DNA of 64,000 nt from Escherichia coli (GTDB taxonomy: Bacteria; Pseudomonadota; Gammaproteobacteria; Enterobacterales; Enterobacteriaceae). Location: NCBI RefSeq assembly GCF_003018255.1, contig NZ_CP027440.1; one strand, 5' to 3'. Positions 62,506 through 62,696 of the stretch are shown one piece after another. The number at the start of each line of letters is the position of its first letter. Position 1 is the first letter of the stretch. The notes under the pieces are model-generated. The model saw nothing but the letters and a program-made list of their open reading frames with translations, did no database searches and was not told the origin of the DNA. The translations under genes and the position numbers were made by a program.

Positions 62506-62512
62506 TAACTGC

Positions 62513-62539
62513 GGCAGACAGGAAACTGTCTGCCTTTTT
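62513..62539 (+). terminator. Rho-independent terminator or attenuator downstream of hcp
   Basis: ggcagacaggaaactgtctgcc hairpin followed by ttttt. Confidence 0.7.
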
Positions 62540-62696
62540 GTTGTGTGCTTTGTCCAGTGCCGCAGGCACCGGTACTGAGCAAAGCATACCCACAATCTGG
62601 TGAAACCTGATGGGCCTGTGTGAGGTAACGGCTATGGGCGGTAGCGTGCCTGAACGCGGATCGCAGGAATACAGAACACGATAAGGAAACCCTTCT

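What the first reader, a model, noticed from the sequence alone, without database searches (positions are those of the whole stretch)
62506..62696. Strong terminator-like hairpin between hcp and clpV
A GC-rich hairpin plus T-run sits 8 nt after the hcp stop, followed by a 190-bp gap before clpV. This pattern is consistent with partial termination giving high Hcp relative to downstream genes, or with a separate clpV promoter.
Basis: seen in the sequence. Interest (0 to 1): 0.3.

Follow-up and report, generated by a model that had tools for sequence, protein, structure and literature searches.

The report
Hcp terminator hairpin before RfaH site
The hairpin after the E. coli type VI secretion gene hcp is real and conserved across enterobacteria, but it is only the first part of a three-part spacer whose last part is an already published loading site (ops) for the anti-termination factor RfaH, so the finding is sound but mostly ordinary.

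Summary
A perfect 9-bp hairpin with a GAAA loop (62513-62534, -17.8 kcal/mol, z -5.3) and a T-run sits 7 nt after the hcp stop, in a 191-nt gap before clpV/tssH (ATG at 62697).

Across 56 distinct short hcp-clpV spacers from over 25 enterobacterial genera, 49 keep such a hairpin plus T-run 4-10 nt after the stop. Stem sequences differ but stay complementary: 97.9% paired, and 6 of 9 pairs show compensatory changes.

- A second conserved hairpin (62543-62589).
- A short covarying stem followed by an exact ops element, GGCGGTAGCGTG (62637-62648), the RfaH recruitment site.

That ops site is already published. It is "ops1" in the EAEC sci1 cluster (bioRxiv 2025). In E. coli CFT073, whose spacer differs from the window by 2 nt, it is an RfaH ChIP-seq target (mBio 2022). 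Neither paper's text mentions the hairpins.

Most likely the hairpin is a leaky intrinsic terminator and 3' stabiliser that keeps tssB-hcp mRNA high, and polymerases that read through load RfaH at ops and transcribe the long distal part. No conserved clpV promoter was found.

This is a new member of known kinds, of modest interest.

The parts
61962..61980 (+). H0: hairpin ACCGCC-GGAAGAA-GGCGGT in the tagL-hcp spacer, about 33 nt upstream of the hcp ATG. Candidate 5' stabiliser or processing hairpin.
   Evidence: Folds at -13.7 kcal/mol, z -2.6. A hairpin at the same place with different stem sequences occurs in relatives: 46 of 61 have z < -2.
62014..62505 (+). hcp (tssD), the T6SS tube protein gene. 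Stop TGA at 62503-62505, then an in-frame TAA.
   Evidence: ORF list. TIGR03344 172.5 bits against a cut-off of 58.9. RefSeq annotation of an identical genome.
62513..62544 (+). T1: intrinsic-terminator-like hairpin (stem 62513-62521 / 62526-62534, GAAA loop) plus U-rich tract 62535-62544.
   Evidence: -17.8 kcal/mol, z -5.3. Conservation with compensatory changes.
62543..62589 (+). H2: second hairpin of 19 bp (11 + 8 with a 1x1 internal loop), no T-run after it. In most relatives its 5' arm is made of the T1 U-tract (UUUGCUGAG...CUCAGCAAA). Role unknown.
   Evidence: -28.7 kcal/mol, z -4.3. Per-locus folds have median dG -21 and z -3.5, with 52 of 66 at z < -2. Outer stem 85.6% paired, 7 of 9 pairs with changes on both sides.
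62605..62636 (+). JUMPStart-like stem: inner helix GGCC (62613-62616) with GGCT (62630-62633). An outer ACC (62605-62607) can pair with GGT (62640-62642) inside ops. Relatives carry an optional extra hairpin inside the loop.
   Evidence: RNAalifold consensus. Inner helix 94% paired, 4 of 4 pairs with changes on both sides; outer helix 98.7% paired. Same topology as the rfaQ, rfb, wza and kps JUMPStart leaders. Only 11.1 bits to Rfam RF01707.
62637..62648 (+). ops element GGCGGTAGCGTG on the coding (non-template) strand, starting 60 nt before the clpV ATG. This is the RfaH loading and pause site.
   Evidence: Only exact copy in the 64 kb window. Part of a near-invariant 15-mer in 54 aligned spacers. 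GGCGGTAGnnT is present in 69 of 76 hcp-clpV spacers. The same site at the same -60 spacing is RfaH-bound in CFT073. The equivalent EAEC ops1 was shown functional by mutation.
62683..62687 (+). Shine-Dalgarno-like AAGGA, 9 nt before the clpV start.
   Evidence: Read directly from the sequence.
62697..64000 (+). clpV/tssH, 5' part. The gene runs off the end of the window.
   Evidence: TIGR03345 564.5 bits over profile positions 1-406 of 852. RefSeq tssH start in an identical genome.

Best explanation
The hcp-clpV gap is a three-part transcriptional hand-over module inside the E. coli T6SS-1 (metV island) operon.

1. T1 is a leaky Rho-independent terminator. Its hairpin also protects the 3' end of the tssB-hcp message, so sheath and tube mRNAs are more abundant than the downstream ones.
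2. Polymerases that read through T1 transcribe a structured, untranslated spacer of about 100 nt (H2 and a JUMPStart-like stem).
3. They pause at the ops site and load RfaH there. RfaH makes them resistant to Rho and H-NS and carries them through clpV, vgrG and the long distal part of the cluster.

Shown here: all the elements are present, and they are conserved with covariation. Shown by others: the RfaH and ops dependence of downstream expression in the EAEC relative, and RfaH occupancy at a near-identical sequence in CFT073. Inferred: that T1 really terminates a fraction of transcripts, that the polymerases reaching ops come from the upstream promoter, and any role for H2.
For: T1:
- Canonical anatomy and a strong fold.
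- 49 of 56 distinct short spacers have a hairpin with dG <= -12 plus a T-run starting 4-10 nt after the stop; 43 of those 49 have at least 6 T in the first 8 nt.
- On a sequence-only MAFFT alignment, 97.9% of cells are paired and 6 of 9 pairs change on both sides, against 32-50% paired when partners are slid, and 0 of 500 shuffles reach the observed values.
- T1, H2 and ops stay together as a unit when an ERIC-like repeat is inserted upstream.

ops:
- Exact 12-mer on the correct strand in an untranslated leader; present in 69 of 76 hcp-clpV spacers.
- The CFT073 spacer differs by 2 nt outside all elements and is an RfaH ChIP-seq site with the same -60 spacing.
- In EAEC, ops1 and rfaH mutations drastically lower a reporter placed after clpV but not one placed between tssC and tssK.

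No promoter:
- No consensus promoter in the gap, and I saw no conserved -10/-35 pair in the alignment.
- The EAEC literature describes one main sci1 promoter plus an internal promoter that lies downstream of clpV.

Analogy: post-hcp hairpins affect hcp mRNA levels in EHEC and Yersinia.
Against: No transcript 3' ends or coverage data exist for this locus (one search found none), so termination efficiency is unknown.

In Yersinia T6SS4, mutating the post-hcp stem lowered hcp mRNA but did not raise downstream transcripts. That argues for a stabiliser rather than a terminator there.

The closest relatives have interrupted U-tracts (L005 TTTCTGTT, L007 TTCTTACT), and much of the U-tract doubles as the 5' arm of H2. 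Its conservation is therefore not unambiguous evidence for termination.

Hustmyer et al. treat tssH as heading its own operon with a 5' leader, although no transcription start was mapped.
Confidence: 0.55

Rival explanations
1. T1 does not terminate transcription to any useful extent. It is, together with H0 upstream of hcp, a protective stem-loop. After endonucleolytic cleavage of the polycistronic RNA, for example in the U-rich linker or in the long H2 helix, a short hairpin-capped hcp mRNA survives while the flanking segments decay. The high Hcp level would then come from differential mRNA stability.
For: hcp is bracketed by two structurally conserved hairpins, H0 and T1. This is the arrangement proposed for Yersinia T6SS4, where stem mutation lowered only hcp4 mRNA. 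In EHEC, deleting the hairpin region lowered hcp3 mRNA. P. putida hcp1 mRNA is more abundant than tssB1 mRNA although no hcp promoter was found upstream. H2 is a 17-20 bp helix in many loci, a plausible RNase III substrate (inference).
Against: A pure stabiliser does not need a U-tract, yet 43 of 49 loci keep at least 6 T in the 8 nt after the stem. The anatomy is that of a textbook intrinsic terminator. The two roles are not mutually exclusive.
Confidence: 0.27
2. T1 is an efficient terminator that ends the tssB-hcp operon, and clpV with the distal genes is transcribed from a separate promoter located between T1 and ops. This would match the terminator-promoter-5'UTR layout of the EHEC hcp3-vgrG3 region.
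For: ops elements normally lie in 5' leaders downstream of a promoter, and Hustmyer et al. list tssH among operons with ops in the leader. The EHEC h3R region is a precedent for a terminator plus promoter after hcp.
Against: No sigma-70-like site in the gap. The candidate -10 CACAAT (62591-62596) has no -35 partner and is CACAAA in most relatives. The region where a promoter would have to lie is occupied by H2, whose sequence varies while its pairing is kept. No transcription start is recorded for tssH in CFT073. The EAEC papers seen here name only the main promoter and an internal promoter that lies beyond clpV.
Confidence: 0.12
3. The hairpin is a chance inverted repeat or a fragment of a repeat element with no function.
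For: Simple terminator-like patterns occur at about the chance rate in this 9 kb region.
Against: Fold z -5.3. Conserved at the same position with compensatory substitutions in many genera.
Confidence: 0.02

Closest known systems
ops1 of the EAEC sci1 T6SS cluster (Taillefer, Desjardins and Cascales, bioRxiv 10.1101/2025.02.08.637259)
   Same: [quoted passage not shown] The EAEC 55989 spacer aligns with the window and carries its own T1, H2 and ops. Mutating ops1 or rfaH lowers expression downstream of clpV only.
   Different: The window is the metV-island T6SS-1 of UPEC/APEC type, about 70% identical to sci1 in the spacer. The preprint text does not mention a terminator, hairpin or JUMPStart; the conserved T1 and H2 are described here.
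tssH (c3392) RfaH target in E. coli CFT073 (Hustmyer et al., mBio 2022, PMC9765446)
   Same: Orthologous locus. The spacer is identical to the window except for 2 nt, with ops at the same -60 position. RfaH ChIP signal was seen in the hns stpA double mutant.
   Different: That work treats the site as the 5' leader of a tssH operon, maps no transcription start, and does not discuss the upstream terminator-like hairpin.
JUMPStart/ops leaders of LPS, capsule and haemolysin operons (rfaQ, rfb, wza, kps, hly); Rfam RF01707
   Same: Identical ops 12-mer, preceded by a 4-bp stem and an 11-13 nt loop a few nucleotides upstream, on the non-template strand of an untranslated leader of a long horizontally acquired operon.
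   Different: The 5' half has a different sequence (ATGsGCy...rGCsA instead of CAGTG..TGGTAGC..GCCAGG). It scores only 11.1 bits against a 35-bit threshold. It lies inside an operon behind a terminator-like hairpin rather than behind a promoter, and none of the seven CFT073 leaders examined has T1- or H2-like hairpins.
Post-hcp4 stem-loop of Yersinia pseudotuberculosis T6SS4 (PMC12503267)
   Same: [quoted passage not shown]
   Different: A different T6SS class and a different downstream gene (tssE4). No ops is reported there. Experiment pointed to a 3' protective role rather than termination.
h3R region between hcp3 and vgrG3 of EHEC (PMC13141884)
   Same: A predicted terminator hairpin starting at +8 after the hcp stop, which stabilises hcp mRNA and separates hcp from downstream genes.
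   Different: In EHEC a promoter and transcription-factor sites follow the terminator. Here the hairpin is followed by a second hairpin and an RfaH site, and no promoter was detected.

Membership tests
Rho-independent (intrinsic) terminator | GC-rich stem with a short loop, on the transcribed strand just downstream of a stop codon | tested here: met
   9-bp perfect stem with 6 G-C pairs and a GAAA loop, 7 nt after the hcp TGA; -17.8 kcal/mol, z -5.3.
Rho-independent (intrinsic) terminator | U-rich tract immediately 3' of the stem | tested here: met
   TTTTTGTT, 7 T in 8. In relatives, 43 of 49 have at least 6 T in 8, but some close relatives have interrupted runs.
Rho-independent (intrinsic) terminator | Transcripts actually end at the U-tract | not testable with these tools
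   No 3'-end data are available; the literature search found none.
ops element / RfaH-dependent operon | 12-nt consensus GGCGGTAGnnTG | tested here: met
   Exact GGCGGTAGCGTG at 62637-62648, the only exact copy in the window.
ops element / RfaH-dependent operon | On the non-template strand, in an untranslated region upstream of a long operon | tested here: met
   Plus strand, the same as clpV, starting 60 nt before its ATG and outside any conserved reading frame. At least 12 kb of co-directional T6SS genes follow in an identical genome.
ops element / RfaH-dependent operon | RfaH occupancy and RfaH-dependent distal expression | not testable with these tools
   Literature only: ChIP-seq at the near-identical CFT073 sequence, and ops1 and rfaH mutants in the EAEC relative.
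JUMPstart RNA (Rfam RF01707) | Covariance-model score at or above the gathering threshold of 35 bits | tested here: not met
   11.1 bits, with only the ops half aligned. No gathering-level hit in three related loci.
JUMPstart RNA (Rfam RF01707) | Short stem-loop immediately 5' of ops | tested here: met
   4-bp helix 62613-62616 / 62630-62633, 94% paired across 54 sequences, all 4 pairs with compensatory changes. Same topology as the rfaQ, rfb, wza and kps leaders.
Hairpin-bracketed, processed hcp mRNA (Yersinia T6SS4 type) | Stem-loops on both sides of hcp | tested here: met
   H0 at 61962-61980 and T1 at 62513-62534, both structurally conserved.
Hairpin-bracketed, processed hcp mRNA (Yersinia T6SS4 type) | A short, stable hcp-only transcript produced by RNase cleavage | not testable with these tools
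   Needs a Northern blot or RNA-seq.
Terminator-promoter-5'UTR region (EHEC h3R type) | A promoter between the terminator and the next gene | tested here: inconclusive
   No sigma-70 consensus site in 62545-62696, and I saw no conserved -35/-10 pair in the alignment. Consensus scans cannot exclude weak or alternative-sigma promoters.

The most novel reading that the evidence does not exclude
T1, H2 and ops form one conserved mid-operon checkpoint rather than three independent elements.

- The hairpin starts only 4-10 nt after the hcp stop codon. A ribosome finishing hcp close behind the polymerase would therefore mask the 5' arm and suppress termination, tying read-through to active Hcp translation.
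- The structured, untranslated spacer of about 100 nt then sheds the ribosome, hides Rho loading sites, and lets RfaH replace NusG at ops.

This would explain how RfaH can be loaded in the middle of an operon, given that ops-like sites inside coding regions do not recruit it.
Probability: 0.2. Interest if true: 0.6.

Novelty: new member of a known kind. Interest (0 to 1): 0.35.

Why it matters
Hcp and the sheath proteins are needed in far greater amounts than ClpV, the baseplate or the membrane complex. A leaky terminator or stabiliser after hcp, followed by an RfaH loading site, would be a simple way to set that ratio while still guaranteeing full-length transcription of a gene cluster of over 20 kb.

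For people working on RfaH control of T6SS, a conserved terminator-like hairpin and a second hairpin just upstream of ops1 change how the ops1 and rfaH phenotypes should be read. RfaH loads downstream of T1 and so cannot act on it, which means the flux of polymerases reaching ops is set upstream. The hairpins also give defined mutations to test.

The practical gain here is an annotation of the junction. No new principle emerges.

Tried and rejected
- **Rfam:** scans of 61000-64000, 62500-62710 and 62598-62662 gave only chance-level hits, apart from a sub-threshold JUMPstart match limited to ops. There were no gathering-level hits in three related loci.
- **Sigma-54 promoter:** the GG-N10-GC spacing inside GGGCGGTAGCGTGCC briefly suggested one. 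I dropped this once the 12-mer was recognised as ops; the match to TGGCAC-N5-TTGC is poor, and I know of no enhancer-binding protein encoded in clusters of this type (own knowledge, not checked here).
- **Small leader peptide:** an ATG at 62610 opens a 24-codon frame in the window, but the invariant block falls in three different frames in the window, EAEC and L023, and indels are not multiples of three.
- **Minus-strand ORFs across the gap** (62469-62711, 62465-62593, 61993-62595): rejected for the same reason, and two of them also overlap the end of hcp or all of it on the opposite strand.
- **tRNA-like reading of GGGCGGTAGC:** ARAGORN finds only the three tRNA-Met genes upstream.
- **Bidirectional terminator:** no T-run follows either hairpin on the minus strand.
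- **RNAalifold on the hcp upstream region:** returned no consensus because the hairpins are out of register in the alignment. I replaced it with per-sequence folds.
- **Brunet et al. 2020 (J Bacteriol), on the sci1 internal promoter:** could not be read.
- **Term-seq data on T6SS:** no paper found.

Full report
**Context**

The last 8 kb of the window is the start of an E. coli type VI secretion cluster inserted next to three tRNA-Met genes (55247-55543). The genes are tssB, tssC (56728-58272), tssK, tssL, an OmpA-domain TagL-like gene (60304-61956), hcp (62014-62505) and clpV/tssH (from 62697, running off the window). The 901-nt stretch around the junction is found in 1361 of 5426 complete E. 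coli genomes, nearly always once per genome.

**The observation**

It starts 7 nt after the TGA of hcp, and an in-frame TAA follows that TGA. It folds at -17.8 kcal/mol, z -5.3 against dinucleotide shuffles. The gap to the clpV ATG is 191 nt.

The tool's loose terminator pattern is not enriched locally. Under stricter criteria the window holds 12 strong terminator-like sites, against about 1 expected, and this one is among the strongest.

**What else is in the gap**

Folding the whole gap shows a second, larger hairpin directly after the T-run (H2, 62543-62589, -28.7 kcal/mol, z -4.3).

Aligning the gap with the about 70%-identical Sci-1-type clusters of EAEC 55989 and two other E. coli strains gave two results:
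- Each has its own GC hairpin plus T-run after hcp, with a different stem sequence.
- All share an invariant block, GGGCGGTAGCGTGCC.

**Comparative survey**

A scan of one genome per species with the Hcp protein returned 80 loci from Enterobacterales, plus two labelled Pseudomonas. Counting the window and the three other E. coli clusters as well, 76 loci have clpV directly downstream of hcp.

- Gap lengths cluster at 150-195 nt, or at about 290-330 nt.
- In the longer class, many loci carry an insert right after the hcp stop. From memory I recognise it as an ERIC/IRU repeat. The hairpin, H2 and the invariant block follow it intact.
- Of 56 distinct short gaps, 49 have a hairpin of -14 to -23 kcal/mol plus a T-run starting 4-10 nt (median 6) after the stop. 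Of those 49, 43 have at least 6 T in the next 8 nt.
- On a sequence-only MAFFT alignment of 54 gaps (A2), the T1 helix is 97.9% paired and 6 of 9 pairs change on both sides (for example A-U 27 / G-C 25). Sliding the partners by 1-3 columns gives 32-50% pairing, and none of 500 shuffles reaches the observed values.

The hairpin is therefore under selection as a structure, across Escherichia, Klebsiella, Enterobacter, Citrobacter, Pantoea, Erwinia, Rahnella, Yersinia, Serratia, Hafnia, Morganella and others.

**H2**

H2 is also nearly universal: median dG -21 kcal/mol, median z -3.5, and 52 of 66 loci at z < -2. Its outer stem is 85.6% paired, with 7 of 9 pairs changed on both sides. In most loci its 5' arm is the T1 U-tract itself (UUUGCUGAG...CUCAGCAAA). 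No T-run follows it, so it is not a second terminator. I have no tested explanation for it. Candidates are an RNase III or RNase E processing module, a 5' cap for the downstream RNA, or a shield against Rho in the untranslated spacer.

**The invariant block is an RfaH site**

The block contains an exact ops element, GGCGGTAGCGTG, at 62637-62648 on the coding strand, starting 60 nt before the clpV ATG. It is the only exact copy in the 64 kb window. GGCGGTAGnnT is present in 69 of 76 hcp-clpV gaps, always once and always on the coding strand. In the short class it starts 105-141 nt after the hcp stop codon (median 131).

Just upstream lies a 4-bp helix (62613-62616 with 62630-62633). It is 94% paired and all four pairs covary, with at least four haplotypes: CGCU/AGCG, CGCC/GGCG, GGCC/GGCU and GGCC/GGCC. 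Many relatives carry an extra, itself compensated, hairpin in its loop.

The topology of a short stem, a loop, a few nucleotides and then ops matches the classical JUMPStart leaders of rfaQ, rfb, wza and kps, which I extracted from CFT073. The sequence of the 5' half differs, however, and the Rfam JUMPstart model scores only 11.1 bits against a 35-bit threshold. I therefore call it JUMPStart-like and do not file it under RF01707. The block is not coding, because it falls in three different frames in three loci.

**What is already known**

- Taillefer, Desjardins and Cascales (bioRxiv 2025) found a consensus ops ("ops1") in the hcp-clpV gap of EAEC sci1. Mutating ops1 abolished sheath assembly. 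Mutating ops1 or rfaH drastically lowered a reporter placed after clpV but not one placed between tssC and tssK. They also noted the same position of ops in several enterobacteria.
- Hustmyer et al. (mBio 2022) found RfaH ChIP-seq signal at the tssH (c3392) ops of CFT073 in an hns stpA mutant. Their table gives ops 60 nt before the start codon and no mapped transcription start. I fetched that CFT073 segment: it differs from the window by 2 nt (window 62604 and 62619), both outside T1, H2, the stem and ops.
- Text searches of both papers return no mention of a terminator, and the preprint also has no mention of a hairpin, a stem or JUMPStart.
- Post-hcp hairpins have been studied in other T6SS classes. 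In EHEC, a terminator hairpin at +8 after hcp3 stabilises hcp3 mRNA and is followed by a promoter. In Yersinia T6SS4, stem-loops flank hcp4, and mutating the downstream one lowered hcp4 mRNA without raising downstream transcripts.

**Mechanism**

My best reading (confidence 0.55) is that T1 is a leaky intrinsic terminator that also caps the 3' end of the tssB-hcp RNA, which raises the level of sheath and tube messages. Polymerases that pass it cross a structured untranslated spacer, pause at ops, load RfaH and then transcribe the long distal part.

RfaH loads downstream of T1 and so cannot be what suppresses T1. The fraction of polymerases reaching ops is set upstream of it.

I favour read-through over a separate promoter for four reasons:
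- No sigma-70-like site lies in the gap.
- The only -10-like hexamer (CACAAT, 62591-62596) has no -35 partner and is not kept in relatives.
- The space where a promoter would have to lie is filled by H2, which varies in sequence.
- The EAEC papers seen here name one main promoter plus an internal promoter that lies beyond clpV.

The main rival (0.27) is that T1 is only a protective stem. In its favour, hcp is bracketed by a second conserved hairpin, H0 (61962-61980 in the window; 46 of 61 relatives at z < -2, with different stems), just as in Yersinia. The two readings can both be partly true. A full stop followed by a separate clpV promoter gets 0.12, and chance gets 0.02.

**Caveats**

- Covariation counts are over sequences, not independent events, although several stem haplotypes are spread over many genera.
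- The U-tract overlaps H2, so its conservation has two possible causes.
- Close relatives of the window (L005, L007) have interrupted T-runs.
- Seven hcp-clpV gaps lack ops. In the two Serratia loci the block is recognisably decayed. The others are the two Pseudomonas-labelled loci, one unnamed gammaproteobacterial MAG, one Photorhabdus and one Sodalis.
- The ERIC identification rests on memory, not on a tool.

**Verdict**

The finding is real and functional-looking, but it belongs to known kinds (an intrinsic terminator or stabiliser after hcp, and a JUMPStart-like ops leader). Its most important neighbour, the RfaH site, has already been published for this very locus.

What seems to be new is the documentation that T1 and H2 are conserved, covarying partners of ops1 across Enterobacterales. 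That gives a testable three-part architecture. Interest 0.35.

Noticed in passing
window 61962-61980 (+): Hairpin ACCGCC-GGAAGAA-GGCGGT in the 57-nt tagL-hcp spacer, about 33 nt before the hcp ATG. A hairpin at the same place with quite different stems (GCGTCATC/GATGACGC, TTCATCAA/TTGATGAA, GTCACC/GGTGAC) occurs in most related loci, so hcp is bracketed by conserved hairpins on both sides.
   Followed up: partly
window 62543-62589 (+): Second long hairpin (H2) immediately after the T-run. It is conserved as a structure in almost all relatives and usually uses the terminator's U-tract as its 5' arm. Its role is unexplained.
   Followed up: partly
L011, L025, L033, L039, L042, L046, L047, L057, L062, L073, L081, L083, L084 (between the hcp stop and the terminator hairpin): An imperfect-palindrome repeat of about 125 bp, which I recognise from memory as ERIC/IRU, is inserted right after the hcp stop in many genera (a shorter version in L084). 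The hairpin, second hairpin and ops module stays intact downstream of it.
   Followed up: partly
L018 and L020 (Serratia), hcp-clpV gap: The ops block has decayed (GGACAGTAGCGTG, GGGCCATAGCGTG) while the terminator hairpin and second hairpin are kept. Other Serratia loci (L022, L042, L049, L075) keep an exact ops.
   Followed up: no
L022 and L075 (Serratia oryzae), just after the hcp stop: Only the 3' half of the terminator hairpin (CCGTCTGC) remains next to the stop codon, followed by another repeat-like GC-rich insert. The second hairpin and ops are intact further on.
   Followed up: no
window 62503-62508: hcp ends with two in-frame stop codons, TGA TAA.
   Followed up: no
window 38430-38441 (+): An 11-of-12 match to ops (GGCGGTCGCGTG). 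It lacks the A of the GGTAG core. Matches with up to one mismatch are not significantly enriched in the window (2 found, 0.41 expected, 9 of 100 shuffles with at least 2), so it is probably chance.
   Followed up: no
window 55247-55543 (+): Three tandem tRNA-Met genes immediately upstream of the T6SS island. This is the metV insertion site, and the 610-nt stretch up to tssB (56154) holds several promoter-like hexamer pairs.
   Followed up: partly
window 9028-9069 (-): The strongest terminator-like hairpin in the window (17 bp, -30.5 kcal/mol, followed by TTTTTTTG), found in the window-wide scan.
   Followed up: no
L090 (CFT073 1715753-1715764): A second T6SS-related RfaH target in CFT073: an ops variant GGCGGTAGCGTA about 300 nt upstream of an orphan PAAR gene, with no terminator-like hairpin pair upstream.
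   Followed up: no
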